From an uncultured Candidatus Saccharibacteria bacterium (lineage in GTDB: Bacteria; Patescibacteriota; Minisyncoccia; Phycocordibacterales; Zambryskibacteraceae): 64,000 nucleotides of DNA. This document shows, piece after piece, positions 1,843 to 20,036 of the stretch (positions are counted from its first letter, which is position 1; each line of letters opens with the position of its first letter). The notes beneath the pieces are model-generated. The model was not told the DNA's origin and did no database searches. It was given only the letters and a program-made list of their open reading frames with translations. The stretch spans positions 78,204 to 142,203 of the forward strand of contig CAYFFP010000001.1 of the NCBI GenBank assembly GCA_964342515.1, written 5' to 3'. The position numbers and the translations under genes were made by a program.

Positions 1843-1960
1843 AGCTTCACAGAATAGCGGCTTCCGGCAACGGGGCCGCTATTTTTGTGCTACGATTACC
1901 ATAATTCTATGGAAGGACTATCGCCAAAAAAAGTTGAGATTTGTTGGGATTAAATATTTT

Positions 1961-2350: not shown

Positions 2351-2465
2351 TAATCATGGACTGACTCTGATATACTAAACACACAATGCAACGCTTTAGA
2401 TTTAGATAGCCACCAAACGAACACCACATTCTCTCGTGGTTGTTCCTGGTGGCTTTTTGGTATTT

Positions 2466-2539
2466 GCCTTTGTAGCTCAATGGTAGAGCAGCGGAGTGAA
2501 GTCCCGAAGACGGAAGTCCAATTCTTCCCAAAGGCACAA
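2466..2539 (+). tRNA. tRNA-like gene, possibly tRNA-Phe(GAA), with a weak anticodon stem (possible pseudogene)
   Basis: Acceptor GCCTTTG/CAAAGGC. D-arm GCTC-AATGGTA-GAGC. T-arm GGAAG-TCCAATT-CTTCC. Candidate loop GTGAAGT gives anticodon GAA, but the stem has only 3 Watson-Crick pairs and the T-loop has C55. No encoded CCA. Confidence 0.35.
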
Positions 2540-2540
2540 T

Positions 2541-2612
2541 GCCCTCGTACGTTAATGGATAGACGGCCTGTGTTCTATCTAGGCAGTGGGGGTCCGATTC
2601 CTCCCGAGGGCG
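2541..2612 (+). tRNA. tRNA-Arg(TCT), non-canonical (G32, C55 in T-loop)
   Basis: Acceptor GCCCTCG/CGAGGGC. D-stem CGTT/GACG with loop AATGGATA. Anticodon stem CCTGT/CTAGG (one closing mismatch), loop GTTCTAT, anticodon TCT. T-arm GGGGG-TCCGATT-CCTCC. Confidence 0.5.
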
Positions 2613-2708
2613 CACGGTGTATAATCTAAATTATGAAAATAGATCCTAAAGAACTGGCAGATTTTGCGAAGATTTATAATAAGAATATAAATTACTTCAT
2701 TAAATAAT

Positions 2709-3197
2709 ATGCTTTACATATTTTTAACTATAATAATAGGTTTACTGATTAAACTAATTTATTTCCCAAGAGATAAAGGGGTAGAAGCACAGACGTACTG
2801 GAATAATTTGTTTGGTCGTAAGATACATATTCTGGACTATAGAAAAGATGATCCGAGAAACAAAACGCACCCAGAGGAGATGGTCAGGATGAAGGATGGT
2901 AGCCTTTCACATAGAAAACTGGCAATGTTGCTTGATGTGGTACAAGAAAAAACACCAAAAGAAATAGCGGATGAACACGAAAAAGAAGCTGAAAAGTATG
3001 GTTTTAAGGTATCTAAAGAACCTTATTCTTTAGTGTCGTTCCTAAATGAAGGAAAGGGTGTTGGAGGTGTAAAGAAACTAAAAAAAGCGGAGAAAAAAGT
3101 ATTAGAAAGGTTGAAAAAAGACAAGAAACCATCAAAAATAGATTGGGCAAAACTTCATTTAGAAGCTCTCAAAAAGATAGGCAAAACTGAAAAATAA
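2709..3197 (+). CDS. Hypothetical protein, N-terminal TM helix, Lys/Glu-rich C-terminus
   Basis: 162-aa ORF in an AT-rich island; no known motif. Confidence 0.4.
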   Translation: MLYIFLTIIIGLLIKLIYFPRDKGVEAQTYWNNLFGRKIHILDYRKDDPRNKTHPEEMVRMKDGSLSHRKLAMLLDVVQEKTPKEIADEHEKEAEKYGFKVSKEPYSLVSFLNEGKGVGGVKKLKKAEKKVLERLKKDKKPSKIDWAKLHLEALKKIGKTEK

Positions 3198-3287
3198 AAG
3201 TAAACAAGGTCAATAATATAGCTTCAGCTACGCTATTTTTGTGCTAATTGTGATAATGTTCAATGATGTTACTACTCTAGCATCAAC

Positions 3288-4388
3288 ATGAAGCGCATTT
3301 ACTTATTTATATCTACCCGGATCAAGCTTGGTTTCCTATTTATAATTATTTTAGTTCCAGCAATACTTGCTCTCCCGAAACCGTTATCCTGGAAGCCTTT
3401 TTACTATAATGAATTATCTTTGATAGTAGAACTAAGTAATGTAGTTTTGGGAAATGAAAGTACGCCTTTTGTGATTCCACATAAAATTGACGCTATTGGT
3501 AAGTCTCCCTTTTTGTATCTACTAGGAATTGAAACTGGCTCAATGCCCACTTTCATAGATATAAGCAATACAAGTAAGATTATTGGTAACGATGGTGTGT
3601 TGATAGATTCTCAAACTTTTTTGGATAAAGGAGGAGTCGTCGATATCTTTGTAAACTTAAATCAAGATAACAAAGAATTGATGATTAAAGTCCCACTTGC
3701 CACATCTACGCGTGAATTTATCACCGCGACCAATGCCTCACATGTGGATGGTGAAATCAGATGGGGAGTCGGTAATACGCTACAAACAGAAAAGTTATGG
3801 AGACAGATAGTATTTGATATGACAGCGAAAATAGGGTTCGAGTTTAAATGGAACATGTATTTGGTAAACTTCTTCATATTATTAGGAGGCTGGATTATTT
3901 TCTTATCATCCCTAATACAAGTTTTTCATGTTTTAATAAAAGACAAAATGAAAAGTAAATTTTATACTGCAGGAGCCATTGAAGAAATGATGGATCTTTC
4001 AAATGAACTGATTCCAGATGAAGAGTGCGGCAAACTAGCAAAATCCCTAACGTTTTTACCGACAGAAGTGGTAGATTTTCTTGATGAAAAGTACGCGTTT
4101 TTAAGTCCTAGTGCTGATGGCTGGACATTGAATTTAAGCGATGAACGTTTGCGGGAGAAAGAGGATCTTAAGGGCTTCATTTTATTACATCCGGATCTTT
4201 GGGAAAAGGACGAGATGACGATTGCCTATACTGTGGCGCATGAATCAGTACATGCTTTCAGGCAACATGGAGATGAGAGAACGCTTGAACAGGAGAAGGA
4301 AGCGGATAAACTTGCCGTAGAGTGGCTTTCTGAACATTTTAAGAAAAAAGATTTATTGAAAGTATGTTTTTATCTCGGGAAACACTAA
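3288..4388 (+). CDS. Membrane protein with C-terminal HExxH zincin-like domain (ImmA/IrrE, M78-like)
   Basis: N-terminal signal/TM and an internal TM. C-terminus VAHESVHAF...EQEKEADKLAVEWL matches HExxH plus the downstream E..A..FA..LL pattern of the ImmA/IrrE metallopeptidase family. Confidence 0.5.
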   Translation: MKRIYLFISTRIKLGFLFIIILVPAILALPKPLSWKPFYYNELSLIVELSNVVLGNESTPFVIPHKIDAIGKSPFLYLLGIETGSMPTFIDISNTSKIIGNDGVLIDSQTFLDKGGVVDIFVNLNQDNKELMIKVPLATSTREFITATNASHVDGEIRWGVGNTLQTEKLWRQIVFDMTAKIGFEFKWNMYLVNFFILLGGWIIFLSSLIQVFHVLIKDKMKSKFYTAGAIEEMMDLSNELIPDEECGKLAKSLTFLPTEVVDFLDEKYAFLSPSADGWTLNLSDERLREKEDLKGFILLHPDLWEKDEMTIAYTVAHESVHAFRQHGDERTLEQEKEADKLAVEWLSEHFKKKDLLKVCFYLGKH

Positions 4389-4482
4389 CGGATAGAAAAA
4401 TAACCCAATGCTTGCTAGAGTATTAACTACTTTAGATGCAGGCGAAATTTCCCAGTAAAATAACAGTTTAGTTAAAGCGATT

Positions 4483-7400
4483 ATGACTACCTCGACAAAA
4501 AAGCCCACAGACACACCTATTGATCCAAAGATCAAAACAATAAGAGATTACCAGGAAAAAGTGGTAGATCTTTCTCGACGAAACCGTCTCCTGAAGTATC
4601 CTTTGAAGGCTCGCCGAATCTCATTTGATCTGAGTCTGCAAGATTTCCATGAGAATTATGGAATGTCTGAAGATTTTAGTATGGAATTTCTTCACAAACT
4701 TGTTCTTGCACAAGATGAGGATGGAAGTCAATTGCCACTATTTCACAATAAAAGGGGCAGAAAAAATGAAAATCAGAAATTCACTCCAATTACGACCCCT
4801 AAAGGAGAGAAGCTACTCAATGCTTTTATATCGCTTAGACTGGATGCCAAAAGAAAATTTGAAGAACATGGCTTAAATACTCTTTTTCTGACAATTGGAA
4901 AGATAAAGTGGAAAGAAAAACAAACAGGGAGAGGTTCTTCCGATGCGAGTGATGAATGGGATTATAATGCCCCATTACTCCTGATTCCTATAAAGATAGA
5001 GGACTACAGACAGCCGATAAAAAAGACGGTAATAAGGCAGGACTTTGAGAGCGGAGAGATTAGCGTTAATCCGATTTTGAGATTATTCCTAGAACGGCAA
5101 TACGGCATTGTAATTCCTGACCTGGAAATTCCGGAAGAAGTTGAAAATATCTCCATCCTCGTTAACAAGTTTGTAACAAAGTTTAAAAAGGCTTTTTCTG
5201 ATTCAAAAATTAAACACAATATCGATTTAGATATAGAGATTGGACAGTACTCATTCTACGGACAACAGATTTACGAGGATTTAAGGGATAACGAGGAGGA
5301 AATAGCAGACAATCCTTTCATTACTTCTTTATGTGAAAAGGCTTCCTTAACTCAAAAAAACTTTTCTGATGTTGAACCTAACCCCGAAAGACTTCTGGAT
5401 CCGGAGGAAGACTTCAGCATACTGGATGCCGACGTTAGTCAATTAGAAGTAATCCAGAAGGTCATATGGGGCCAGAGCATGGTTGTTCAAGGTCCACCGG
5501 GTACCGGCAAAAGCCAGACTATCGTAAATCTTGTTTCTAATCTGCTTGCTAGAGGTAAGAGCGTATTAGTAGTCTGCGAAAAACATGTTGCTTTGGAGGT
5601 TGTCTTGAAAAGATTAAAAGATGCCGGTCTGGACAAGCTCTGCTTACCCCTATTTCAATTCAGTACAGACAAAAGCCGTTTCGCTAAAAGTATAATCGAA
5701 GATAGAAATTACATCATTAAAAATTTCTCTTCAGAAAATAGAGCACTTCACTCTTCTTTGGAACTTAGACAAAAGAGTATAAATAAATTGAAAGATTATG
5801 CAAAAACTCTTTCAAAAATAATTGAACCATTGGGCAGAAATGTATTCTGGGTACATGGAGAATTATCTCGGATGCAGTCGATTAATTCTGACGACCCTAT
5901 CTTATGGAAGGGAAATGATCTACAGGCCATCACTTTTCCAGAATATCAAGAGTTAATTACTCTTACCGCCAATATAGCTCCGATATTAAAGAAAAAGGAA
6001 GAAAATGCAGTTGATTACTGGCAGTCAATAAAGAAAGAGCATTTCTCTCCCGACTACGCAACGCGAGTATTTCAGGCTCTGTCTGACGCTAAAAGAAATC
6101 TTAGTTCTTTAATAAAGATTAAGCCTGATTTGCTACCAATCCATTCCGTCTCCGATATTAAAAAAGCAGTAGAACTCAAGGAAAAAATAACTTCAATTTT
6201 ACCTCTAGATTTGCATAACTTGGGAATCAGAACTGACACTTCCATAGAAGATGTGATTACTGGGTTAAAAAAGCTAAATAAGATGTTGTCATTGTATGAA
6301 AAGACAAACTCTTCCTTAGCAAAGAAATACCTTGTACCGGAATCATGGTATTTACCAAACCAAAGTCATTTTGACGGCTTGAATGACAATGTCCTAATTG
6401 TTGATATTGAGAAGGCGGAAATAGAACTGAAAGCAACTGAGGACTCCTTAAAATTTACTAAGAAATTCCTATCTCAAAATAAGGCAGATTACTTAATTGC
6501 TCTACCGATCAATGAACTTTCGAAATATATTCCACTTTTCGAGCTAGATTCCGTCTTAAAGAAGCTTAGTTCATGGAATAACATTGGCTCACTTAAGTCT
6601 GCTGCTGAATCGATAGGGGTACTCTATGCGATTTATCAAAAATTGGAATCGGCTAAGCTCGAGTTTGAAAAGAGAGCCATTACTTTCGCTGATCTCAATG
6701 AATCAGAGGCCCTGGTGATCGCCGACAGATTTCAAGAGAAATATAAGTATTTTTTTAGATTTATTTTCCCTCAATACAAAAAGGATTGCATGGTAATTGC
6801 TTCATGGTGCGGAGTTGAAGTGCCGGTGAAATTCGCTGATTTCAATAAGATTGTCTTAAGTGTTCAAGATTGTTTTAGGCTTACCACGAAGTTTAAAGCT
6901 CTTTTGTCGCAGTTTAATCAGAAATGGACTCAAAAGAAAGATGGAGTTGGGTATGCTTCAATTCCAGGGTTGCATACGAATTTATCTAGATTGATCGATT
7001 GGCTCACTCTTGAAGGTAAGGAAGAACTGCCTCCTCAATTATTCAAATTTATTGAAACTAATCTAGATAATGAAGATCTGAAGACCTTGCCGTTAAGTCT
7101 GAATTCAATAAGCAAACTGTTGAACAATTTTTTAAAGGTTTTCAACTTAAATGATTCCCTATCCTTTAACGAGATTGAAAGTAAAAGAAGATCTTTGGAT
7201 AATCAAATAAAGAATATTATTCAGAACTACAGAAATGTCGTCGAGATTCTCCCAGAAAACCAACCAAAAACAGTCGACGAGATGAAGAGTGATATAGCTG
7301 CGATAAATCAACTGGCGGATGTCTTGAAAACAGTATCGAAAAAAGAACTGGATGACTTATTTCACCCAGAAACTAGCCTAAGGGAAATTGTCGGTCTCTC

Positions 7401-9396
7401 CTTACGATTCAATAAGGAAGGTGAGAAACTAGAAAAGATATCTGGGGCGGTTTCTAAATTTATTCCTGAATCAACCGCCTTAAGTTTAAGTCTGTTTAAT
7501 GATCTTCTCTTAAAATTGAACGAGAAAAGCATTCTCTGGGAACAACCTCTTGAGCAATACGAAACTTCCATTTCTAATCTTGATGGCCTCTTTGAAACTG
7601 AAGGTAGTCTAGCGCATCTTGAATTATTAAATCTTTCGGAACAGGATAAATCCCTTACTAAAATGAATTTGGATGTAGGTGGATTAGAAAATCAAATGAA
7701 TTTTGCAAGATATGCACATGTTTTTAGAGACAAAGGACATGAGTGGTTTCTCAAGGATATAAATGGCAAATCGATTGCCAACCTAAGTGCATTATTTGCT
7801 CAGTCCCTCTGGAACGCATGGCTAGATAATTATTACCGGAAAAATCCGGCCTTGAGAGACTTCAATATTCTTGAGCACAAGAAGGTCATGGCTGATTTCA
7901 AGGCGCTTGAGAGAGAAGTCTTGAAGATTAATGCCGCCCGAGTGATGGGGAAAGTCGGACCAATAGTTAAATCCCATAAATTACATTGCAATCAAGCTGA
8001 CGAGAGATATTTGGTCCATCAAAGTGAGCTCCAGCGTAGGCATAAGCCTATCCGGCAAGTAGTTACCAATTGCCCGGATCATCTCCAGGGTTATAAACCA
8101 TGTTGGATGATGAGCCCTCTGACCCTAAGCTCTTATATTCCCTATGGGAAAATGAATTTTGATGTCGTTATTTTTGACGAGGCATCTCAAATGAGAGTAG
8201 AACATGCTCTTGGTGCTATTGCTCGAGCCGGTCAAGTTGTTATATTTGGAGATGAACACCAATTGCCGCCTACCTCTTTCTTTGAAGTGACTTCCGAAGG
8301 AGACGAGGAATCCGAAGAAGAACAGGACTTTGAAAGTATTCTCCATGCCTCTAAAACGGTGCTTCCGAACGCAGACGAATCACTCTTATATCATTACCGA
8401 AGTAAACATGAGGACTTAATCGCTTTTTGCAATTATGAAGTCTATGATGGCCGTCTTATCACTTTTCCAAATCCAACTATAAGTAAGAGTGTGGGATTCG
8501 TGCATGTGGCGGATGGTGTATTTGATGGAGCAGTAAGTAGAGAAGGATATTCCGGCACAAGGAGAAATGATATCGAGGCTAAAAGAGTTGCCGAAGTCTG
8601 CGCCCAACATGCCGCTGATTATCCGGATAAATCTATCGGTGTGATCGCTTTCAGTAAGAGCCAAGAATTGGCTATAAGAGATGCCGTTATTAATCTGCTT
8701 GAGACAAATCCGGAAGTAAGGGATAAGCTGAATGAGGATGATCCTAGCTCTGATGCTTTCTTTATTAAAAATCTCGAATCAGTACAGGGTGATGAAAGAG
8801 ATATCATCGTCCTCTCAATTGGATATGCCAGAGATAAGAATGGCGATATGCATAACCGTTTCGGTCCTATAAATGCGAGAAGTGGCTATCGTAGGTTAAA
8901 TGTAGCTTTTACTCGCGCTAAAGAAAAAATTGTCTGCGTCTCCTCTATAAAGGCTACTGATATAAGGCCAGGCCCTACTGCCAGAGGAGCCAAGATGCTC
9001 CAACATTACTTGGATTATGCTGAAAATGGTCCTGCCGTATTGGTTTCTAGCCTGCTGGTCCAAAATAATGCAGTCGATGTCGATAGTCCATTTGAACTTG
9101 ATGTTGAAAAAGCCCTCATGGATCGAGGATACAAAATTGAAAGACAGGTTGGCGCTTCCGGATATAAGATCGATTTGGCGGTTATTGATCCTAAAAATGA
9201 CGGTCAATACATTTTAGGTATTGAATGCGATGGTGCTACTTACCACTCCTCTTATTCAGCTAGGGTAAATGACCGGCTTAGGCAAGATGTTCTAGAAAGG
9301 TTAGGTTGGAAAATCTATAGGGTTTGGTCTCAGCACTGGATCACTCATAAGAGTGAGATCGTTGACGACATTACTCGATCAATAAGTAAGATTTAA
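4483..9396 (+). CDS. Large SF1 (Upf1-like) helicase with N-terminal DUF4011-like region and C-terminal DUF559/Vsr-like PD-(D/E)xK endonuclease; Hhe-like
   Basis: Walker A GPPGTGKSQT. Motif II VIFDEASQM. AAA_12 motifs DERDIIVLSIGYAR and NVAFTRAKEKIVCVSS. N-terminus RRNRLLKYP is typical of DUF4011. C-terminus GYKIDLAVID...GIECDGATYHSS...RQDVLERLGWKIYRVWSQHW is a DUF559/Vsr-type nuclease fold. Confidence 0.85.
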   Translation: MTTSTKKPTDTPIDPKIKTIRDYQEKVVDLSRRNRLLKYPLKARRISFDLSLQDFHENYGMSEDFSMEFLHKLVLAQDEDGSQLPLFHNKRGRKNENQKFTPITTPKGEKLLNAFISLRLDAKRKFEEHGLNTLFLTIGKIKWKEKQTGRGSSDASDEWDYNAPLLLIPIKIEDYRQPIKKTVIRQDFESGEISVNPILRLFLERQYGIVIPDLEIPEEVENISILVNKFVTKFKKAFSDSKIKHNIDLDIEIGQYSFYGQQIYEDLRDNEEEIADNPFITSLCEKASLTQKNFSDVEPNPERLLDPEEDFSILDADVSQLEVIQKVIWGQSMVVQGPPGTGKSQTIVNLVSNLLARGKSVLVVCEKHVALEVVLKRLKDAGLDKLCLPLFQFSTDKSRFAKSIIEDRNYIIKNFSSENRALHSSLELRQKSINKLKDYAKTLSKIIEPLGRNVFWVHGELSRMQSINSDDPILWKGNDLQAITFPEYQELITLTANIAPILKKKEENAVDYWQSIKKEHFSPDYATRVFQALSDAKRNLSSLIKIKPDLLPIHSVSDIKKAVELKEKITSILPLDLHNLGIRTDTSIEDVITGLKKLNKMLSLYEKTNSSLAKKYLVPESWYLPNQSHFDGLNDNVLIVDIEKAEIELKATEDSLKFTKKFLSQNKADYLIALPINELSKYIPLFELDSVLKKLSSWNNIGSLKSAAESIGVLYAIYQKLESAKLEFEKRAITFADLNESEALVIADRFQEKYKYFFRFIFPQYKKDCMVIASWCGVEVPVKFADFNKIVLSVQDCFRLTTKFKALLSQFNQKWTQKKDGVGYASIPGLHTNLSRLIDWLTLEGKEELPPQLFKFIETNLDNEDLKTLPLSLNSISKLLNNFLKVFNLNDSLSFNEIESKRRSLDNQIKNIIQNYRNVVEILPENQPKTVDEMKSDIAAINQLADVLKTVSKKELDDLFHPETSLREIVGLSLRFNKEGEKLEKISGAVSKFIPESTALSLSLFNDLLLKLNEKSILWEQPLEQYETSISNLDGLFETEGSLAHLELLNLSEQDKSLTKMNLDVGGLENQMNFARYAHVFRDKGHEWFLKDINGKSIANLSALFAQSLWNAWLDNYYRKNPALRDFNILEHKKVMADFKALEREVLKINAARVMGKVGPIVKSHKLHCNQADERYLVHQSELQRRHKPIRQVVTNCPDHLQGYKPCWMMSPLTLSSYIPYGKMNFDVVIFDEASQMRVEHALGAIARAGQVVIFGDEHQLPPTSFFEVTSEGDEESEEEQDFESILHASKTVLPNADESLLYHYRSKHEDLIAFCNYEVYDGRLITFPNPTISKSVGFVHVADGVFDGAVSREGYSGTRRNDIEAKRVAEVCAQHAADYPDKSIGVIAFSKSQELAIRDAVINLLETNPEVRDKLNEDDPSSDAFFIKNLESVQGDERDIIVLSIGYARDKNGDMHNRFGPINARSGYRRLNVAFTRAKEKIVCVSSIKATDIRPGPTARGAKMLQHYLDYAENGPAVLVSSLLVQNNAVDVDSPFELDVEKALMDRGYKIERQVGASGYKIDLAVIDPKNDGQYILGIECDGATYHSSYSARVNDRLRQDVLERLGWKIYRVWSQHWITHKSEIVDDITRSISKI

Positions 9397-10985
9397 TGGT
9401 AATTACAAAATCAGATTATGTTTTATGGAGGGAATGTCCTCATAACTCTTGGGTAAAAAAGTGGAAGCCTGATCTTTATCACTCATCTCCATTGTCAGAC
9501 TTCGAGAAGCACCTGATTAATTCCGGAAATATGGTCGAGGAGACAGCTCGATTAAGATTTCCAGAGGGGGTGCTTATTAAAAGTAAGGGTGACGAAGCTT
9601 TAAGTAAAACTCAGGAGTTTTTAAAAAGCGATTCCGGTACTATTTTTCAAGCCTCGTTTTCAGATGGGACTCTTTTCGCCGCAGTAGATATTTTAAAACA
9701 CACTGGAAGCAAAGGGATGCAGCTTTATGAGGTTAAGGCTTCTAATTCATCAAAAACAGAATCAGAGGAGGACGAGATTAATAATGATGGAGATGAAGTA
9801 GTTAACAAGCTTGATCCAAAAGCATTAGAAAAGTACAAGAAGGAACTACTTAAGGACCACCATCTCTACGACCTTGCTTTTCAGGTCTACCTAGCCCGTA
9901 AGATTGGTCATAAGGTTACCGGGGCGTACCTTATGAGGTTGAATAAACAATATGTACGCGCTGGAGAGATTGATCTAAACAAACTTTTTGTAATTGAAGA
10001 CGTGCTTTCTTATGTCGACGAGGTACTTCCAAGAGTTAAGGAGGACATACAAATCTTAACCAAAATCCTTACTTCTTCTAGTGAACCAAAAGGGCCTTGT
10101 TGTTGTCTTAATAAAGGCAGATCCAATCATTGCACCACTTTTGCGATCCACAATAAGGATGTTCCATCCTACAGCGTCCATGACCTTACGGCTATTGGAA
10201 GAAGTAAGAAGAAACTAGATGAACTGATTGATTCTGGAATATACGACATTTTAGACATACCTGACGGTTTTGAATTTGGTAAGAAAATCCAAAAGCAAGT
10301 AGAGGTGCATAAGCGAGGCAAGGATTCTATTGATTACGAAACAATAGAGAGTGAACTTAAGACATTGCAATTTCCCCTTTACTTTCTTGACTACGAATCA
10401 TTTAATCCTGCTATACCACGTTTTTCTGGTTACAAACCATATCAACACATGCCTTTTCAGTTTTCAGTACACAGATTAGATAAACCAGATGGCGATCTAA
10501 TACATTCTGAATTTCTTTATACCGGCACAGAAGATCCAAGTCCTCTTTTTGTAGAAGCCTTAAAGAAAGCTATTGGTAAAAGCGGCAATATAATCGTGTG
10601 GTATAAACCTTTTGAAGAATCGCATATAAATAAAAAGATAGCTATTCGTATTCCCGAATGTGCTGATTTTATAAATGATTTAAACTCTCGCATGTTTGAC
10701 CTTATGACTATTTTTTCTAAACAGCTCCATATTCATCCAGATTTCCATGGTAGTGCCTCTATCAAAAAGGTCTTACCAGTTATATGTCCAGAACTTTCTT
10801 ATAAAGAAATGGAGATTGGTAATGGATCGGAAGCAATGAATACCTGGAATAAGTTAGTTATGGAAGAAGTATCAGATAAAGAGCGTCTAGGAGTAGAAAA
10901 GAATATGCTTGAATATTGTGGGCTCGATACATACGCCATGTATAAAATTTGGAAACATCTCATAGAGTTGAATAGCCACATATGA
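9396..10985 (+). CDS. DUF2779-family predicted nuclease (PD-(D/E)xK/Cas4-like N-terminus with Cys cluster, C-terminal exonuclease-like half)
   Basis: Start overlaps the helicase stop (TAATG). N-terminus KSDYVLWRECPHNSW resembles the DUF2779 SKS.F..G.QCPKRLW signature. EVKAS and DLAFQ blocks and a CCCLNKGRSNHC Cys cluster are present. Confidence 0.6.
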   Translation: MVITKSDYVLWRECPHNSWVKKWKPDLYHSSPLSDFEKHLINSGNMVEETARLRFPEGVLIKSKGDEALSKTQEFLKSDSGTIFQASFSDGTLFAAVDILKHTGSKGMQLYEVKASNSSKTESEEDEINNDGDEVVNKLDPKALEKYKKELLKDHHLYDLAFQVYLARKIGHKVTGAYLMRLNKQYVRAGEIDLNKLFVIEDVLSYVDEVLPRVKEDIQILTKILTSSSEPKGPCCCLNKGRSNHCTTFAIHNKDVPSYSVHDLTAIGRSKKKLDELIDSGIYDILDIPDGFEFGKKIQKQVEVHKRGKDSIDYETIESELKTLQFPLYFLDYESFNPAIPRFSGYKPYQHMPFQFSVHRLDKPDGDLIHSEFLYTGTEDPSPLFVEALKKAIGKSGNIIVWYKPFEESHINKKIAIRIPECADFINDLNSRMFDLMTIFSKQLHIHPDFHGSASIKKVLPVICPELSYKEMEIGNGSEAMNTWNKLVMEEVSDKERLGVEKNMLEYCGLDTYAMYKIWKHLIELNSHI

Positions 10986-11815
10986 AATATTTAAAGATAT
11001 TAGGAATATCAGTATCAGTCATCCTTATCCTGCTTGTAGTTATCGGATTCTCTCTAGGTAATCCAGAGTCAAATAAATTTTCTAGCTCGCAGGAAGTAAG
11101 CCAGGACATACCGGATAAGGAGCAAGTTCAGCAAACGGCTGCTGTAGAGACTGCAGAGCTGGATGTACCGGGAAGTCAAGGACCATATCAAGTAATCAAA
11201 GTGGTTGATGGCGATACCATAACGATTGATCTGAACGGCAAAGCGGAAACAATCCGGCTTATTGGCATCAATACTCCAGAAACAGTTGATCCAAGAAAGC
11301 CGGTGGAATGTTTCGGCGTAGAGGCTTCAAACAAGGCCAAAGAACTTTTAACAAACAAGCGCGTGTATATTGAGATGGACCCGACCCAAGGAGAGCGAGA
11401 CAAATACAGTCGCTTGCTTGCATATGTATATCGTGAGGACGGATTCTTCTTTAATAAGTCCATGATCCTTAGTGGCTATGCTTACGAATATACCTACAAC
11501 ATCCCCTATAAATACCAGAGTGAATTTAAGGAAGTACAGAGAAATGCCGAAATCAATCAAAGAGGCTTATGGGCTCCTGGTGTCTGTGAAGAAAAAGAAG
11601 CTACGCCAACACAGCAATCTACGCCGACACCTACACCTACGCAACCAACCCAATCAACTTCCGGATATTCATGCTCGGCAAATACATACAACTGCACAGA
11701 CTTCTCCACTCATGCCGAAGCTCAATCTGTTTATGAAATGTGCGGAGGGATAAATAACGATATTCATAGGCTTGATCAAGATAAAGATGGTGAAGCTTGT
11801 GAATCTTTGCCGTAG
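10982..11815 (+). CDS. Secreted thermonuclease (staphylococcal nuclease/SNase-like) with C-terminal Excalibur Ca-binding domain
   Basis: ATGA start/stop overlap with the upstream gene. N-terminal TM/signal. Block VDGDTITIDLNGKAETIRLIGINTPE...RLLAYVY...QRGLWA matches the SNase fold. C-terminus DQDKDGEACESLP is the Excalibur DxDxDGxxCE motif. A Thr/Pro/Gln linker separates the two. Confidence 0.8.
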   Translation: MKYLKILGISVSVILILLVVIGFSLGNPESNKFSSSQEVSQDIPDKEQVQQTAAVETAELDVPGSQGPYQVIKVVDGDTITIDLNGKAETIRLIGINTPETVDPRKPVECFGVEASNKAKELLTNKRVYIEMDPTQGERDKYSRLLAYVYREDGFFFNKSMILSGYAYEYTYNIPYKYQSEFKEVQRNAEINQRGLWAPGVCEEKEATPTQQSTPTPTPTQPTQSTSGYSCSANTYNCTDFSTHAEAQSVYEMCGGINNDIHRLDQDKDGEACESLP

Positions 11816-11839
11816 GAAATATATTACTATCGTACGAAA

Positions 11840-12190
11840 ATGGACGAAAAAGCAGAAAACAAAAATGATAAGCCGGTTCTATCAAAAGCCAATAAAATTC
11901 TTATATTGACTCTTGCTATATTTTTTCTTGCATTCTCCATATTCAACGTATATTCAGAAATCCGGAAACAATTTATGTGTAGCCAGATGGCGCTTTTTAA
12001 TGCCCAAGTGCCACCCTCCGACATTGATAGTTATATCTTGCGTAAAGAAGCTTTTGAAAACGTATGCCTTGAAAGAACCGGTCTCGGAAGTTACTTTTGG
12101 GCTTTTGCTAGTTTCTGGTTTCTCGGCTATGCCATAACCCTTTTCGCTAAGCATACAGAAAAAGTGCAAGTAGCCGATAAAAAGATTTAG
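11840..12190 (+). CDS. Small hypothetical membrane protein
   Basis: 116-aa ORF with two hydrophobic helices; no motif. Confidence 0.35.
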   Translation: MDEKAENKNDKPVLSKANKILILTLAIFFLAFSIFNVYSEIRKQFMCSQMALFNAQVPPSDIDSYILRKEAFENVCLERTGLGSYFWAFASFWFLGYAITLFAKHTEKVQVADKKI

Positions 12191-12269
12191 CGGAAATTAG
12201 ATGTCCATCAAATTGCCGGTATAAACCTTACAGACGGCCATAACTGCAAAATCCCGCTGAACTCAAGCT

Positions 12270-12278
12270 CCCGTGCTA
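12270..12278 (+). promoter_or_regulatory. -10-like element (TGCTATAAT) upstream of the DUF1508 gene
   Basis: tgctataat lies 8 nt upstream of ATG 12286. Confidence 0.4.
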
Positions 12279-12285
12279 TAATACG

Positions 12286-12486
12286 GTGATGGCAGGAAAA
12301 AATAGAATCGAAATAAATAGAGCGAAAAACAAGCAACTTTTTCTTACAATCAAGAGTGCTAATAATAAGAAGATTCTTCACAGCGAGACATATAAGTCCA
12401 GACAGGGAGTAGAAACTGCTGTGAAAGCCGCGAAAAAGATCATCAAGAACCCTAAGATAGTAGATAATACTAGAGGTAAGAAGTAG
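12286..12486 (+). CDS. DUF1508 (YegP-like) family small protein
   Basis: 66 aa. FLTIKSANNKKILHSETYKSRQGVETAVKAAKK matches the DUF1508 repeat signature (f.L.A.NG..i..SE.Y.s...a..gI.sVk). Confidence 0.5.
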   Translation: MMAGKNRIEINRAKNKQLFLTIKSANNKKILHSETYKSRQGVETAVKAAKKIIKNPKIVDNTRGKK

Positions 12487-12581
12487 TTTACTGGTATATA
12501 TAAATGGTTAATTCAGCGAATTTCTTAACCTTTATTTTGCTTTGTTCGTGTAATTTTGTTATCTTTGTTTTGATAGAAGAA

Positions 12582-12654
12582 GGGCCCTTAGCTTAGTTGG
12601 TAGAGCGCCGCATTTGCAATGCGGAGGTCGGGAGTTCGAATCTCCCAGGGTCCA
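12582..12654 (+). tRNA. tRNA-Ala(TGC)
   Basis: Acceptor GGGCCCT/AGGGTCC with G3:U70. D-arm GCTT-AGTTGGTAG-AGCG. Anticodon arm CCGCA-TTTGCAA-TGCGG. T-arm GGGAG-TTCGAAT-CTCCC. Discriminator A, then CC. Confidence 0.85.
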
Positions 12655-12661
12655 CCGTTTT

Positions 12662-13105
12662 ATGGAAAGAGAAAAATGGCATGTAGAAAAGTTACCTGCT
12701 GGGTATCCTACTCAATGTAGTAATGAAGATCTTAGTAATGCCTTGCAAGACTTAATAGACGAGTATCGCCAAAAAAAACTTGGCGGTAAGAATAATAAAA
12801 TATGGGAAGATATAATCTCTCAACTCATTAAGCAAGGTCGTGATGAAATGTCTAGTAGAATAGAGAAACACGGTCCAATCACTATAACCTATGCTGGCGG
12901 AGAAGGCGGTAAGGGAGGGCTTTGGAGCGGTGGAGGTGGTGGTGGAGGTGCAGGACCTGGTGGTGGCAGAGGTGGAGATGGGGGTTCAGTTGTCGTAATG
13001 CCACCAAAAACATCTGGGGTATGGAAATGGATTTTTGATCACGTTTTTCAGATTATTGTGGCAGTAATCGTAGCGGCTATAGTTTACTGGCTTGGCTGGA
13101 GTTAA
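12662..13105 (+). CDS. Hypothetical Gly-rich protein with C-terminal TM helix
   Basis: ORF 12614..13105 trimmed to the first ATG downstream of the tRNA. It contains a GGEGGKGGLWSGGGGGGGAGPGGGRGGDGG low-complexity tract. Confidence 0.35.
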   Translation: MEREKWHVEKLPAGYPTQCSNEDLSNALQDLIDEYRQKKLGGKNNKIWEDIISQLIKQGRDEMSSRIEKHGPITITYAGGEGGKGGLWSGGGGGGGAGPGGGRGGDGGSVVVMPPKTSGVWKWIFDHVFQIIVAVIVAAIVYWLGWS

Positions 13106-13138
13106 GTTATTTCTAAGTTTTATATACTATATCCACAA

Positions 13139-13327
13139 ATGAAACCGCAACATTTTGACATCCTTGGTTCATTGGCTTTTGCTTACATTACAGGGTTTGC
13201 TCTGTATGCATTGCTGAACAACGGAAACGCTCCGATGTGGAGTATCGTACTCCTTATATTTGTCGGAATCGGAGGATTAGTTGTTGACCTTGTTATCGTT
13301 TTTTTATATTTCATTCGAAAGAAGTAA
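13139..13327 (+). CDS. Small hypothetical membrane protein
   Basis: 62 aa with two TM helices. Confidence 0.3.
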   Translation: MKPQHFDILGSLAFAYITGFALYALLNNGNAPMWSIVLLIFVGIGGLVVDLVIVFLYFIRKK

Positions 13328-13423
13328 ATCCTTTGATCTTGCTAATTCTACTAACTGCCTAACTTCTTGTACGATCTGGTTCCAGTCAAATATACTTAGG
13401 TTCACCACAAAATCAGTAGATGG

Positions 13424-14323
13424 CTAAATAACCAAGTCATTCAGTGGGTGTTTGTTCATTTGCAACCTCAAATGCTCTGCGCTGGCAGAAAGGTAAATTG
13501 TGGTTGTCTTGATGTCACTGTGTCCCATTAGTCTAGAGAGGGAGAATATATCACAGCCACCAGTTAGCATTAATGTAGCATAAGTATGCCTTAGCTTATG
13601 AATTGTAAAATTGATTTTGGAAGTTTCTTTTATTTTTCTTACTAGATTTCTGAGTCCCATGTCTGTAAATCCACAATTCCGGTTGAGCGATGCAAAAAAT
13701 TCTGGACAAGTCTTATTGAGTCGTTTTCGCTCGTCCAAATAGCGTTTTAGGCTCTGGGCCAACGCGCTACACATTGGTATTATTCGATCCTTGCCACCTT
13801 TGCCTTGGTTGACGAATATGCTCAGATTTTCCACGTCTACATCGGTGTATTTCAATTTCAAAAGCTCTTTCTTTCGCAAGCCGGAGAAAAGGAAGGTTGA
13901 AAATATGGCGTGATTTCTATATCTCAAAAATTTGTAGTCGTAGGGGTAGTTATAAACAACCTCAACGAGCTTGAGAGCATCTTGTTTGGTTAGGCAGGAT
14001 GGCAGACGTTTTTCCACCTTGGGTATTTCCAGATCATCAGCTGGATTCTTTGTCAGATATTTTTCACTCACGCACCACTTAAAAAATACCGTCAGAGAAT
14101 GGTAGAAACAAATAAATGAGTTAGGTTTCCAGTTGCGTTTGGTCCTGCCGTTGAAAAAGAATTGTCGGACATTTTCTTCCGTCACTTGTTCTATTTCCGA
14201 AACTTCTGCCAACCTCGAGTACAAGTTGATCGCTTGTCTATATCGTCGAATCGTTGCTGGTCTGTAGCCACGCATATACAACGAATAATCGTAAAACTTC
14301 TGAGCCAATATTTGTATATTCAT
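13424..14323 (-). CDS. Tyrosine site-specific recombinase/integrase (phage-integrase family)
   Basis: C-terminal block HKLRHTYATLMLTGGCDIFSLSRLMGHSDIKTTTIYL carries the His/Arg/Tyr catalytic motifs. It lies adjacent to tRNA-Ala genes and a truncated tRNA copy. Confidence 0.85.
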   Translation of the reverse strand: MNIQILAQKFYDYSLYMRGYRPATIRRYRQAINLYSRLAEVSEIEQVTEENVRQFFFNGRTKRNWKPNSFICFYHSLTVFFKWCVSEKYLTKNPADDLEIPKVEKRLPSCLTKQDALKLVEVVYNYPYDYKFLRYRNHAIFSTFLFSGLRKKELLKLKYTDVDVENLSIFVNQGKGGKDRIIPMCSALAQSLKRYLDERKRLNKTCPEFFASLNRNCGFTDMGLRNLVRKIKETSKINFTIHKLRHTYATLMLTGGCDIFSLSRLMGHSDIKTTTIYLSASAEHLRLQMNKHPLNDLVI

Positions 14324-14498
14324 AATAATAACAACCTATCGCTGTTATTATTTCAAGAGAACCATTGGTGAAAACTGAATCAAAAACGGTATAAGTTTGA
14401 TGAGCCGATGACCTGTTTAGTGAATGAATAGGTCATCTAACCCCTTTAAAAACAATTTTATCCTTATTTAGAGAGATATTTGATCAATGGAGGGTAGA

Positions 14499-14543
14499 CC
14501 TATTTATTGCAAATGAGGCGCTCTACCGACTAAGCTACGGGCC
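14499..14543 (-). pseudogene. Truncated 5' portion (through anticodon loop) of a tRNA-Ala(TGC) copy, inverted relative to the intact gene; likely att-site or rearrangement remnant
   Basis: The minus strand reads GGGCCCGTAGCTTAGTCGGTAGAGCGCCTCATTTGCAAT and then diverges (AAATAGG...). It is about 36/39 identical to 12582-12620 of the intact tRNA. No T-arm or 3' acceptor follows. Confidence 0.5.
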
Positions 14544-14630
14544 CGGGAGCAAAATCTTCAATTTTCAATTTTGCAATTTTCAAATAATACTCGACAAAAT
14601 GGCTAAAATCAAGCAAAATATCGGTCCAAA

Positions 14631-14701
14631 GGGCCTATGGTATAGTAGTAACACGCGTCCATGGCATGGACGAGTCGGGGGTGCGATTCCCCCTAGGTCC
14701 A
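14631..14701 (+). tRNA. tRNA-Ala(GGC), non-canonical T-loop (TGCGATT)
   Basis: Acceptor GGGCCTA/TAGGTCC with G3:U70. Anticodon arm CGTCC-ATGGCAT-GGACG gives anticodon GGC. T-arm GGGGG-TGCGATT-CCCCC. Confidence 0.65.
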
Positions 14702-14711
14702 CACGCGTCTT

Positions 14712-14785
14712 GGGCCTATAGTTTAGTAGCAGAACACGGCATTCGCATTGCCGAGACTCGAGTGCGATTCTCGATAGGTCCACCA
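14712..14785 (+). tRNA. tRNA-Ala(CGC) with encoded CCA
   Basis: Acceptor GGGCCTA/TAGGTCC. Anticodon arm CGGCA-TTCGCAT-TGCCG. T-arm TCGAG-TGCGATT-CTCGA. A-CCA is followed immediately by ATG of the next gene. Confidence 0.65.
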
Positions 14786-16588: not shown

Positions 16589-16727
16589 TGAGATAGCAAA
16601 ACACCAGCTTTCGCTGGTGTTTTGCTTCCTAAGTGCTTGCGGGCTCCAATACCAGCACTAGGCTCGGTATGTGTATAGAGTATCATAGGTAGCTATTTCT
16701 TACAAGTGTCTTGTGGATATCTTTTAA

Positions 16728-20035: not shown

Positions 20036-20036
20036 A

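What the first reader, a model, noticed from the sequence alone, without database searches (positions are those of the whole stretch)
12582..14785. tRNA-Ala cluster with tyrosine integrase and an inverted, truncated tRNA-Ala(TGC) copy
An intact tRNA-Ala(TGC) is at 12582-12654. Tandem tRNA-Ala(GGC) and tRNA-Ala(CGC) sit at 14631-14785. Between them lie about 1.9 kb holding a Gly-rich protein, a small membrane protein and a tyrosine integrase. The integrase abuts a 45-nt fragment identical in register to the 5' half of tRNA-Ala(TGC) through the anticodon loop (36/39 identities), but on the opposite strand. A canonical tRNA-targeting insertion leaves a same-orientation 3' fragment. An inverted 5' fragment suggests integrase-mediated inversion or disruption of a second tRNA-Ala(TGC) gene by the element. 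Island 1 (helicase cassette) sits just to the left.
Basis: seen in the sequence. Interest (0 to 1): 0.55.

Follow-up and report, generated by a model that had tools for sequence, protein, structure and literature searches.

The report
Mobile element splits and replaces tRNA-Ala
The "inverted tRNA fragment" is the front half of the bacterium's own tRNA-Ala(TGC) gene, cut in two at the anticodon loop by a 19.6-kb mobile element that does not repair the gene but carries its own complete tRNA-Ala(TGC) copy, a strategy so far shown only in mycobacteriophages.

Summary
Three tRNA-Ala genes, a 299-aa tyrosine recombinase and a minus-strand 5' half of tRNA-Ala(TGC) (36/39 identities) are all present at the stated coordinates.

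In related Zambryskibacteria that lack the recombinase, tRNA-Ala(TGC) always lies head-to-head with tRNA-Ala(GGC). The fragment therefore sits at the native position and orientation.

The missing 3' half exists 5.1 kb left of the window, on the same strand. Joined to the fragment, it gives a perfect tRNA-Ala with G3:U70 and CCA. A 19,599-bp insertion, which includes the "helicase island", therefore splits the host gene at an 8-bp core, TTTGCAAT.

The junction does not regenerate a tRNA. The intact gene at 12582-12656 lies inside the insertion. Other genomes keep it linked to the recombinase despite different flanks.

The recombinase family is conserved at 60-90% identity across phyla. It repeatedly shows the same junction motif (loop + TAAAYAGGTC), orphan halves that pair with each other, a carried full tRNA, and a paralogous second recombinase on the other side of attP.

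The logic matches the "tRNA-dependent lysogeny" of actinophages. This is a new variant of it, in a CPR bacterium and apparently not a complete phage.

The parts
14507..14544 (-). Orphan 5' half of the host's native tRNA-Ala(TGC). Positions 1-31 run 14544->14514 and the anticodon loop TTTGCAA runs 14513->14507. This is the host side of attL.
   Evidence: It matches the intact tRNA at 36/39 positions and the 5'-half HMM at E=1.5e-7. It lies 86 nt from tRNA-Ala(GGC), head-to-head, as in L176, L173 and L178. It pairs perfectly (7 acceptor + 5 anticodon-stem pairs, G3:U70) with the orphan 3' half at L180 568-610, which is window -5122..-5080.
14497..14506 (-). Element-side core arm of attL, TAAATAGGTC. 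It replaces the anticodon-stem 3' strand TGAGG. The 8-bp common core with attR is TTTGCAAT (14513->14506).
   Evidence: Side by side, L176 reads gacctCCTCAttgcaaa and the window reads gacctATTTAttgcaaa. The same loop + TAAAYAGGTC junction follows orphan 5' halves of Thr, Ala-TGC and Ala-GGC genes in other loci: 25 of 54 distinct orphans match strictly and 36 of 54 loosely.
14407..14437 (.). 'Site c', an imperfect palindrome GATGACCTGTTT-AGTGAAT-GAATAGGTCATC (12-7-12). It is an attP-arm-like recombinase site between attL and the recombinase gene.
   Evidence: The motif RAAYAGGYC occurs within 150 nt upstream of the recombinase in 47 of 114 loci, against 9 of 1864 control windows. It is one of three AAAYAGGTC sites, about 100 nt apart, in the reconstructed 374-nt attP region.
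14324..14352 (-). Perfect 10-nt inverted repeat AATAATAACA-N9-TGTTATTATT ending at the recombinase ATG. It may be an operator or a translational hairpin; its function is unknown.
   Evidence: It is unique in the window. It is kept in the 88-92% relatives, with paired changes in L093 (GGCA/TGCC). It folds as a 12-bp hairpin in the MFE and centroid structures. Contigs of sample ERR1193294 break exactly here.
13424..14323 (-). Xer-like tyrosine recombinase ('int299'), next to attL.
   Evidence: Pfam and PHROG both call it an integrase. NCBIfam best hits are XerA/XerC/XerD, but all fall below the curated cut-offs (180.8 vs 220; 174 vs 335; 166 vs 330). 1908 homologues have E<=1e-10, many at 60-90% identity, in CPR, Bacteroidota, Gammaproteobacteria, Ignavibacteria and Myxococcota.
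12662..13327 (+). Two small ORFs: a Gly-rich 147-aa protein with a C-terminal hydrophobic tail (12662-13105) and a 62-aa membrane protein (13139-13327). They form a lineage-specific ~750-nt insertion between the recombinase stop and the carried tRNA.
   Evidence: They are absent in L087, L088 and L096, where the tRNA lies 15 nt after the recombinase stop. They have no Pfam, PHROG or PADLOC hits.
12582..12656 (+). Element-borne complete tRNA-Ala(TGC), convergent with the recombinase. It is the presumed functional replacement of the split host gene.
   Evidence: It scores 73.7 bits and lies inside the 19.6-kb insertion. The linkage of recombinase to an inverted full tRNA is conserved in L087, L088, L094, L095 and L096, which have different flanks. 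Its anticodon stem CCGCA/TGCGG groups with the other element copies, whereas native Zambryskibacteria genes and the reconstructed native gene have CCTCA/TGAGG plus an encoded CCA.
12531..12581 (+). Conserved upstream (promoter) region of the carried tRNA.
   Evidence: Window 12655->12531 aligns to L087 10916-11038 at 84%, extending about 50 nt beyond the tRNA 5' end. The same holds for L096.
1..12530 (.). The rest of the insertion that lies in the window. It holds the DUF1508 protein, a 116-aa ORF, an SNase/Excalibur nuclease, DUF2779, the 1637-aa DUF4011 helicase-MTES_1575 nuclease, 366-aa and 162-aa ORFs, tRNA-Arg(TCT), a tRNA-like gene, SymE-like small ORFs and a LOOT RNA. The insertion continues 5.1 kb left of the window.
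   Evidence: The window part has lower GC (about 34-44% over 1600-14600, rising to 42-48% at 1-1800) than the host DNA on the right (46-52%). The part left of the window is mostly 36-41%, against 62% for the DNA beyond attR. Domains are, including PADLOC PDC-S37 at 1.6e-287. L096 shares the SNase and DUF1508 genes beyond its carried tRNA. Left of the window lie HNH, a head-maturation protease (S49), ParB-like, a 365-aa second tyrosine recombinase, and then attR.
14545..14785 (+). Host DNA: the native divergent spacer (14545-14630), then tRNA-Ala(GGC) at 14631-14702 and tRNA-Ala(CGC) at 14712-14785, followed by the VTT/DedA gene.
   Evidence: The GGC gene is nearly identical to that of L176. 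The gene order VTT-DUF5679-M10 peptidase-76/77-aa ORF-flavodoxin downstream of the tRNA-Ala cluster recurs, with lineage-specific insertions, in the relatives. A promoter-like site TTGATT-17-TATTAT at 14612->14584 (-) lies upstream of the orphan half, but such sites occur at chance frequency here.

Best explanation
A 19,599-bp integrative element inserted into the anticodon loop of the host's native tRNA-Ala(TGC) gene. That gene natively lies on the minus strand, head-to-head with tRNA-Ala(GGC). Recombination used only an 8-bp common core (TTTGCAAT). The gene is therefore not rebuilt at either junction.

- **attL:** the native 5' half joined to the element arm TAAATAGGTC, followed by site c and the recombinase gene.
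- **attR:** 5.1 kb left of the window. The element arm GGGTACTTATTTC is joined to the native 3' half.
- **Replacement:** the element carries its own complete tRNA-Ala(TGC) at 12582-12656, which presumably supplies the lost function.

The recombinase at 13424-14323 most likely catalysed the event, possibly together with its 365-aa paralogue next to attR. In the excised form the two recombinase genes would flank a ~374-bp attP with three AAAYAGGTC sites.

**Shown:** the two halves, their strand and their perfect complementarity; the native synteny; and the recurrence of the same junction and architecture in the family.

**Inferred:** which recombinase acts, that the carried tRNA complements the loss, and that the element can still excise.
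For: 1. **Native position.** Six loci from relatives that lack the recombinase have Ala(TGC) head-to-head with Ala(GGC), 57-138 nt apart, in the Ddl...VTT region. The window fragment is 86 nt from GGC in the same geometry.
2. **Missing half found.** Contig k119_159021 is 100% identical to the window over 20.9 kb and extends 5.69 kb further left. At L180 568-610 (-) lies TTTGCAA-TGAGG-AGGTC-GCCCGTTCGAATCGGGT-CGGGTCC-ACCA (nhmmer E=7e-5). The joined halves fold as a perfect 76-nt tRNA-Ala(TGC) with G3:U70. The orphan 5' half would mispair with the carried copy at positions 7:66 and 29:41.
3. **Element-side junction is family-specific.** Loop + TAAAYAGGTC follows orphan halves of different tRNAs. 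In L105 and L172 the orphan 5' and 3' halves pair with each other and not with the carried full copy, and in L097 two nested pairs do so.
4. **The module recurs with different flanks.** L087/L088 lie after UvrC-Ddl, L094/L095 lie next to Ala-CGC and Val-CAC, and L096 is a further case.
5. **attP forms exist.** The reconstructed attP region (374 nt) matches in length and layout the 353-400-nt spacer between the paralogous recombinase and int299 in loci where attP is intact: L015, L156, L144, L025 and others.
6. **Composition.** The insertion has lower GC than both flanks.
7. **Precedent.** The same logic is experimentally established for mycobacteriophages (PMC10865867).
Against: - attR is seen in only one assembled contig (L180). 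The other assemblies stop short of it.
- The DNA left of attR (62% GC; KGG-domain and basic small ORFs) has no detectable homology to the expected Ddl side of relatives, and the contig ends 560 nt further on. Host continuity on that side is therefore not shown.
- The 19.6 kb is heterogeneous in GC and holds two recombinases and phage remnants. It may be composite, with nested or tandem elements.
- No excised or empty-site form of this particular element was found.
- Whether this is the only tRNA-Ala(UGC) in the genome cannot be checked from 70 kb.
- No expression or activity data exist.
Confidence: 0.85

Rival explanations
1. Invertible segment or phase switch. The recombinase flips the 1.9-kb segment between the two inverted tRNA 5' halves, or a past inversion created the arrangement.
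For: The 48-nt inverted repeat flanks the recombinase gene. Both arms contain a recombinase-type site in inverted orientation. TTGCAA within the loop is a palindrome. In L121 and L129 the block homologous to window 725-1842 is inverted relative to the recombinase.
Against: The arrangement is fully explained without inversion: the fragment has the native orientation and its 3' half is collinear on the same strand. A flip would create a hybrid tRNA with two stem mismatches. Three assemblies from two samples show the same orientation, and the one contig break (14330-14353) is not at the repeat.
Confidence: 0.04
2. A canonical tRNA island whose repaired junction later decayed. The element originally rebuilt tRNA-Ala at attL with a 3'-half mimic. 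That copy then degenerated, and the intact gene arose by duplication or is a second host gene.
For: Relatives of this recombinase do use the canonical mode: a full tRNA, ~120 nt, the recombinase, and a 3' fragment 1.6-3.2 kb downstream (L019, L022, L047).
Against: The sequence after the loop (TAAAYAGGTCTAC) is conserved between elements targeting Thr, Ala-TGC and Ala-GGC, so it is an element arm and not a decayed Ala 3' half. A collinear orphan 3' half that pairs with the orphan 5' half exists. The intact gene lies inside the insertion and travels with the recombinase.
Confidence: 0.05
3. The fragment belongs to the element (an attP that mimics the tRNA 5' half), and the intact tRNA-Ala(TGC) is the host gene or a host/element chimera.
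For: Islander records 159 islands with 5' tDNA fragments (PMC4383910). Homology between the window and L087 starts exactly at the fragment's 5' end. The intact copies in the window and L087 share an identical 5' half but differ in the T arm.
Against: The fragment sits at the native head-to-head position next to GGC and varies between hosts, whereas the intact copy's anticodon stem is element-type on both strands. The 3' half that pairs with the fragment lies 19.6 kb away, beyond the intact gene.
Confidence: 0.03
4. Assembly chimera: the junctions are artefacts of joining repeats in a metagenome assembly.
For: This recombinase is very often found on short contigs or at contig ends. One assembly breaks at 14330-14353.
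Against: Sequence across attL is identical in independent assemblies (L001/L004 and L005). The repeat is only 48 nt at 85% identity, far below the assembly k. The same architecture occurs in unrelated samples and genomes.
Confidence: 0.02

Closest known systems
tRNA-dependent lysogeny of actinobacteriophages (Fionnbharth/K4, cluster L, Gaia; Guerrero-Bustamante & Hatfull, mBio 2024, PMC10865867)
   Same: A tyrosine integrase recombines with an attB inside a host tRNA gene. The common core is only 8-10 bp at the anticodon region, so no functional tRNA is rebuilt. [quoted passage not shown] Here the core is 8 bp (TTTGCAAT) and the carried gene is tRNA-Ala(TGC).
   Different: The host is a CPR bacterium. 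The 19.6 kb holds only phage remnants (protease, HNH, ParB-like) plus defence-like genes. No close relative of the recombinase occurs in IMG/VR (best 34% identity). The recombinase is a small Xer-like enzyme, and a paralogous second recombinase sits on the other side of attP. Some family members are minimal, for example a ~1.9-kb element in L022. Nothing here has been tested experimentally.
Canonical tDNA-targeting genomic islands with anticodon-loop ('A') crossover (the Williams 2002 classification, as cited in the Islander paper; Islander, PMC4383910)
   Same: A tyrosine recombinase lies next to an att site, the crossover is centred on the anticodon loop, and tDNA fragments mark the island ends.
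   Different: The defining repair of the target by an attP-borne tDNA fragment is absent. Two complementary, non-overlapping halves are left, and a complete gene is carried elsewhere in the element.
Xer-type simple tyrosine recombinases (XerA/XerC/XerD)
   Same: They are the best NCBIfam and PDB sequence matches, have the same two-domain 290-300-aa build, and lack an extra arm-binding domain. JGI names relatives 'XerD'. Two paralogues possibly act on one site, as XerC and XerD do on dif (inference).
   Different: All scores are far below the curated equivalog cut-offs. The genes lie in low-GC insertions next to tRNA halves, are found at varying loci, and occur in several architectures.
tRNA-Thr(GGU) gene disruption in Caldiarchaeum subterraneum (Sugahara et al. 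2012, PMC3293823)
   Same: A 5' tRNA fragment, a ~1.8-kb recombinase-like insertion and a full tRNA of the same anticodon lie together, and fragments can end up scattered.
   Different: It is archaeal. The breakpoint is at positions ~24-27, and the element supplies a new 5' part that fuses to the native 3' part.
Split tRNA genes of Nanoarchaeum and relatives (own knowledge; the literature appeared but was not read)
   Same: The gene is cut after the anticodon loop into separately located 5' and 3' halves.
   Different: There the halves are expressed and joined into a working tRNA. Here nothing suggests joining, because a full replacement gene is present.

Membership tests
Canonical tDNA-integrating island (Islander definition) | Tyrosine-family integrase encoded next to an attachment site | tested here: met
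   int299 begins 173 nt from attL. A 365-aa paralogue lies 185 nt from attR.
Canonical tDNA-integrating island (Islander definition) | Integration site lies within a tRNA/tmRNA gene | tested here: met
   The break is at the anticodon loop of native tRNA-Ala(TGC), and the halves rejoin to a perfect tRNA.
Canonical tDNA-integrating island (Islander definition) | [quoted passage not shown] | tested here: not met
   attL continues TAAATAGGTCTACCCTCC..., with no T arm or acceptor strand. ARAGORN finds no tRNA in 14300-14640, and the 3'-half HMM has no hit there.
tRNA-dependent lysogeny (PMC10865867) | [quoted passage not shown] | tested here: met
   attL reads ...GCGCCTCA TTTGCAAT AAATAGGTC and attR reads ...CTTATTTC TTTGCAAT GAGGAGGTC, an 8-bp common core.
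tRNA-dependent lysogeny (PMC10865867) | [quoted passage not shown] | tested here: met
   tRNA-Ala(TGC) at 12582-12656 lies inside the insertion, scores 73.7 bits and has G3:U70.
tRNA-dependent lysogeny (PMC10865867) | The disrupted host tRNA is single-copy and essential, and the element tRNA is required for survival of integrants | not testable with these tools
   Only ~70 kb of the genome is available, and it contains no other Ala(TGC) gene. A test needs the full genome and genetics.
tRNA-dependent lysogeny (PMC10865867) | The element is a temperate phage | tested here: inconclusive
   PHROG hits are limited to a head-maturation protease, HNH, ParB-like and integrase, with no capsid, terminase or tail. 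The family is absent from IMG/VR at >34% identity.
XerC/XerD/XerA chromosome-dimer resolvases | Score above the curated equivalog cut-off | tested here: not met
   XerA 180.8 vs 220; XerC 174.2 vs 335; XerD 165.8 vs 330.
Tyrosine-recombinase invertible switch (Fim/shufflon-like) | Segment bounded by inverted recombinase sites and found in both orientations | tested here: inconclusive
   Inverted sites are present, but only one orientation is seen in three assemblies. No read-level data are available. The arrangement is explained by insertion alone.

The most novel reading that the evidence does not exclude
This is one instance of a cross-phylum family of 'tRNA-gene replacement' elements, found in CPR, Bacteroidota, Gammaproteobacteria, Ignavibacteria and Myxococcota. 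Each is built around a pair of paralogous Xer-like recombinases flanking attP. The element destroys an essential single-copy tRNA gene and holds the only working copy. The host therefore becomes dependent on the element, and only precise excision is tolerated.

Minimal members may carry little more than recombinase and tRNA. Successive elements replace one another's tRNA copies, as in the nested halves of L097. In many Thr-targeting members a self-splicing-type intervening sequence sits in the carried copy's anticodon loop and would shield that copy from further attack by the recombinase.
Probability: 0.35. Interest if true: 0.75.

Novelty: new variant of a known kind. Interest (0 to 1): 0.55.

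Why it matters
- **Island finders.** Tools that rely on 'intact tDNA plus displaced 3' fragment' will miss or mis-delimit such elements. Here they would call a 1.9-kb oddity instead of a 19.6-kb insertion that carries a defence-type helicase-nuclease.
- **Reach of the strategy.** The 'break the tRNA and bring your own' strategy, shown experimentally only in actinophages in 2024, would extend to ultra-small CPR bacteria and many other phyla. It would also be tied to one very conserved, easily recognised recombinase family.
- **tRNA bookkeeping in reduced genomes.** With single-copy tRNAs, the working tRNA-Ala(UGC) may be foreign. This affects tRNA-based phylogeny, estimates of gene-set completeness, and ideas on how split or intron-bearing tRNA genes arise.
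- **Testability.** Family members appear in contigs labelled as cultured Bacteroidota (Mucilaginibacter sp. X4EP1, Niastella populi, Lutibacter oceani), so the mechanism could be tested.

Tried and rejected
- **3' half inside the window.** Exact, mismatch, ungapped-scan and HMM searches all found nothing. One search used a mis-spaced pattern and is void.
- **Inversion switch.** I took this seriously after finding the same inverted module in L087. I dropped it once the native synteny and the collinear 3' half appeared.
- **Weak tRNA-like hit at 16727-16794 (-) as the lost 3' half.** Rejected: its acceptor stem is GCCCGCA/TGCGGGC, which is not Ala.
- **Contig break at 14330-14353 in ERR1193294 as evidence of population heterogeneity at the repeat.** The break lies at the hairpin before the recombinase ATG, not at the tRNA repeats, so it is left unexplained.
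- **Walking left with ORF 725-1066.** This failed because the called start codon differs. Using ORF 3288-4388 worked.
- **Reconstructed attP and the family in IMG/VR.** There was no exact attP match and no close relatives.
- **Rfam on the intervening sequences in Thr copies.** There was no group I intron hit at the gathering or E-value threshold, so the 'group I intron' label rests on resemblance only.
- **Homology of the DNA left of attR to the Ddl side of relatives.** None was found beyond the tRNA half itself.
- **Literature.** Searches for a description of this recombinase family found none.


Full report
**1. Observation**

ARAGORN and the Rfam tRNA model both recover tRNA-Ala(TGC) at 12582-12656 (+), tRNA-Ala(GGC) at 14631-14702 (+) and tRNA-Ala(CGC) at 14712-14785 (+).

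The longest inverted repeat in the first 20 kb pairs 12582-12629 with 14497-14544 (48 nt, 85%). In register, the minus-strand copy matches tRNA positions 1-39 at 36/39 positions. It then diverges: the anticodon-stem 3' strand is replaced by TAAAT, AGGTC is kept, and no T arm or acceptor strand follows. The 22-nt core occurs twice in the window, against 0 expected.

The ORF at 13424-14323 (-) is a 299-aa tyrosine recombinase, and the residues I take to be its catalytic set are invariant in the family alignment. No 3' half of tRNA-Ala(TGC) is present anywhere in the 64-kb window.

**2. The recombinase family points to the anticodon loop**

The protein has 1908 homologues at E<=1e-10, many at 60-90% identity. 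In one-genome-per-species contigs it occurs in these groups:
- Parcubacteria/Paceibacteria, Saccharibacteria, Doudnabacteria, Magasanikbacteria and Microgenomates;
- Bacteroidota, including contigs labelled Niastella populi, Mucilaginibacter sp. X4EP1 and Lutibacter oceani;
- Gammaproteobacteria, Ignavibacteria and Myxococcota.

It has no relative above 34% identity in IMG/VR. Its best curated matches are XerA, XerC and XerD, all well below their cut-offs.

About 150 loci were fetched from genomes and metagenomes. I scanned them with ARAGORN and with HMMs of tRNA 5' and 3' halves. The gene is almost always within ~300 nt of a tRNA or a half tRNA broken at the anticodon loop.

Recurrent layouts:
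- **(A)** orphan 5' half - TAAACAGGTCTAC... - palindromic site - full tRNA (mostly Thr-GGT/CGT) - 35 nt - recombinase. In many loci the full copy is interrupted in the anticodon loop by a ~200-nt sequence.
- **(B)** full tRNA - ~120 nt - recombinase, with a 3' fragment 1.6-3.2 kb downstream. This is the canonical mode.
- **(C)** 3' half - recombinase.
- **(D)** orphan 5' half - recombinase - full tRNA on the opposite strand. This is the window's layout.

There are 54 distinct orphan 5' halves upstream of the recombinase. Of these, 25 are followed strictly (36 loosely) by AA[ACT][CT]AGGTC directly after the loop, and 48 of the 54 loci also hold a full copy within 2.7 kb. RAAYAGGYC lies within 150 nt upstream of the gene in 47 of 114 loci, against 9 of 1864 control windows.

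**3. The window's layout recurs with other flanks**

Recombinases 88-92% identical sit in the same module elsewhere:
- L087/L088 (GCA_023267045.1) lie downstream of UvrB-UvrA-UvrC-Ddl, with the inverted full tRNA-Ala(TGC) 15 nt after the recombinase stop.
- L094/L095 lie next to Ala(CGC) and Val(CAC).
- L096 is a further case.
- L093, L145 and L089-L092 have an orphan half, and their contigs end right after the gene.

blastn of the window against L087 aligns 14544->13405 (79%) and 12655->12531 (84%). The two small ORFs in the window are therefore a lineage-specific ~750-nt insertion. L096 also shares the SNase and DUF1508 genes beyond its carried tRNA.

The same layout exists for Ala(GGC) in L121 and L129. 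For Lys(CTT) the site upstream of the gene is an intact non-tRNA site whose 7-nt spacer equals the Lys-CTT anticodon loop.

**4. What the fragment is**

Source names of homologues of the VTT/DedA protein next to tRNA-Ala(CGC) place the organism in or near Candidatus Zambryskibacteria. This is an inference from 69-77% identical proteins.

Six loci from relatives that lack the recombinase place their tRNA-Ala cluster between Ddl and VTT and share the downstream order VTT - DUF5679 - (M10 peptidase) - flavodoxin; four of them also have UvrB-UvrA-UvrC upstream of Ddl. In all of them Ala(TGC) is head-to-head with Ala(GGC), with 57-138 nt between the 5' ends. In the window the fragment's 5' end is 86 nt from the GGC gene in the same geometry, and the GGC gene is nearly identical to that of L176.

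Side by side, L176 and the window are the same through the loop and differ only beyond it: gacctCCTCAttgcaaa versus gacctATTTAttgcaaa. The fragment is therefore the native gene's 5' half, in its native orientation.

**5. The missing half**

Contig ena:ERZ27298651:k119_159021 is 100% identical to the window over 20.9 kb. It extends 5.69 kb left of the window (L180; window coordinate = L180 - 5690).

At L180 568-610, on the minus strand, lies TTTGCAA TGAGG AGGTC GCCCG TTCGAAT CGGGT CGGGTCC ACCA. TGAGG pairs with the orphan's CCTCA. CGGGTCC pairs with GGGCCCG, including G3:U70. The joined sequence is called a 76-nt tRNA-Ala(TGC) with a flawless cloverleaf.

Both halves are on the same strand and in the right order. 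The distance between the two loop copies is 19,599 bp. The DNA beyond is 62% GC. The insertion itself is mostly ~34-44% GC, with patches up to ~51%, and the host DNA on the right is 46-52%.

The common core of attL and attR is 8 bp, TTTGCAAT.

Native Zambryskibacteria genes and the reconstructed native gene share the anticodon stem CCTCA/TGAGG and an encoded CCA. The carried copies in the window, L087 and L096 share CCGCA/TGCGG.

Layout A shows the same logic independently. In L105 and L172 the orphan 5' and 3' halves, 4-5 kb apart, pair with each other and not with the carried copy. In L097 two nested pairs of halves record two successive insertions.

**6. Contents of the insertion**

Reading from attL:
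- site c (14407-14437);
- a hairpin at the ATG, then int299;
- two small ORFs;
- the carried tRNA-Ala(TGC);
- a DUF1508 protein and a 116-aa ORF;
- an SNase/Excalibur nuclease (PADLOC C3a212) and DUF2779;
- a 1637-aa DUF4011 helicase-MTES_1575 nuclease (PADLOC PDC-S37 at 1.6e-287; Hhe-like);
- 366-aa and 162-aa ORFs;
- tRNA-Arg(TCT) and a tRNA-like gene;
- SymE-like small ORFs and a LOOT RNA.

Outside the window it continues with an HNH-like protein, a head-maturation protease (S49), a ParB-like protein and a 365-aa tyrosine recombinase 185 nt from attR. It may be composite. It is not a recognisable complete prophage.

**7. A second recombinase and the attP form**

The 365-aa protein is 32% identical to int299. 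It is 49% identical to a 313-aa recombinase that sits ~205 nt from attR in L097.

tblastn finds this paralogue directly upstream of int299, on the same strand, at about -1300 to -370, in about 20 loci. Those loci have an intact site between the two genes. The spacer of 353-400 nt contains, in order: an AAACAGGTC site; ~90 nt; a core whose 7-nt spacer is a tRNA anticodon loop; ~90 nt; and site c.

Joining the window element's two ends gives a 374-nt region with the same three AAAYAGGTC sites at ~100-nt spacing. The integrated form in the window and the attP forms elsewhere are therefore circular permutations of one design.

Whether both recombinases act on the site, in the manner of XerC/XerD, is inference. 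At least one canonical-mode relative (L022, ~1.9 kb between the tRNA and its 3' fragment) has no detectable paralogue, which suggests that one enzyme can suffice.

**8. Mechanism and status of each step**

*Shown by sequence:*
- insertion at the anticodon loop with an 8-bp core;
- no repair at either junction;
- a complete same-anticodon tRNA inside the element;
- family-wide recurrence.

*Inferred:*
- int299, with or without its paralogue, catalysed the event;
- the carried tRNA is expressed and compensates;
- the orphan half's former promoter may read into the recombinase gene (a promoter-like site lies at 14612->14584, but such sites occur at chance frequency);
- the element can still excise (both halves are undecayed).

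**9. Comparison with what is known**

The logic is that of 'tRNA-dependent lysogeny', demonstrated for mycobacteriophages in 2024: an 8-10-bp core, no reconstruction of the tRNA, and a phage tRNA required for lysogeny (PMC10865867). The defining sequence features are met here. Essentiality and phage nature could not be shown.

The case fails the defining feature of canonical tDNA islands, which is repair by an attP-borne fragment (PMC4383910).

An archaeal case leaves a 5' fragment next to a recombinase-like gene but fuses a new 5' part to the old 3' part (PMC3293823).

Five literature searches found no description of this recombinase family or of its two-recombinase attP layout. Absence from the searched library is not proof of novelty.

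**10. Verdict**

The 'inversion' reading is unnecessary. The principle is known; this is a new variant in host range, enzyme type and architecture. Interest is moderate (0.55). It would be higher if the family-wide 'tRNA hostage' reading holds.

Noticed in passing
L180 795-1892 (-), i.e. window -4895..-3798 (outside the window): A second tyrosine recombinase (365 aa) lies 185 nt from attR. It is 32% identical to int299 and 49% identical to the recombinase next to attR in L097. In about 20 other loci this paralogue sits directly upstream of int299, with an intact attP-like region of 353-400 nt between them.
   Followed up: partly
L010, L012, L014, L018, L028, L035, L045, L097-L100, L113, L116-L119, L130-L132, L135, L147, L160, L168, L170 (about -310 to -40 relative to the recombinase start): The carried tRNA-Thr(GGT) copy is interrupted in the anticodon loop by a ~200-nt sequence that looks like a group I intron. 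Rfam does not call it. It may be the 'divergent group I introns' reported for Patescibacteria tRNA-Thr (PMC13011429). It would destroy the recombinase site in the carried copy.
   Followed up: partly
L097 (-582, -469, +3289, +3353 relative to the recombinase start); L089-L092 (two tandem orphan 5' halves): Nested or tandem orphan halves record successive replacements of the same tRNA gene. In L089-L092 the older Ala 5' half carries a 45-nt palindromic insertion in its D loop.
   Followed up: partly
window 14324-14352 and contig ends at 14330/14353: A perfect 10-nt inverted repeat ends at the recombinase ATG, with compensatory changes in L093. Both the megahit and the Logan contigs of sample ERR1193294 stop here, overlapping by only 24 nt. 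The cause is unknown.
   Followed up: partly
window 2466-2536 (+): A tRNA-like gene scores 56.9 bits on the Rfam tRNA model but is not called by ARAGORN. It has two mismatches in the anticodon stem and a GAA-like anticodon. It lies directly before tRNA-Arg(TCT) at 2541-2613, and both are inside the insertion.
   Followed up: no
window 297-418 (-): A LOOT RNA motif matches at 76.2 bits (gathering score 46.4), inside the insertion.
   Followed up: no
window 16727-16794 (-), 16517-16588 and 17112-17183: A weak tRNA-like structure (27.2 bits) has a reduced D arm and a good T arm and acceptor stem. It is flanked by two 72-nt direct repeats (93% identical), each ending in a 28-nt palindrome.
   Followed up: partly
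window 4483-9396 (+) and 10982-11815 (+): The 1637-aa DUF4011 helicase with a C-terminal MTES_1575 nuclease matches the PADLOC candidate system PDC-S37 (1.6e-287) and Hhe. The SNase/Excalibur protein matches PADLOC C3a212. This is defence-type cargo of the element.
   Followed up: partly
L121 and L129 versus window 725-1842 and 17600-17960: Related Parcubacteria carry the same layout at tRNA-Ala(GGC). L129 has homologues of window sequences on both sides of the module. In both L121 and L129 the block matching window 725-1842 is inverted relative to the recombinase, so this neighbourhood has been rearranged between lineages.
   Followed up: no
window 18800-20200: A sharp low-GC patch (31-36%) with negative GC skew lies in otherwise 46-52% GC host DNA.
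   Followed up: no
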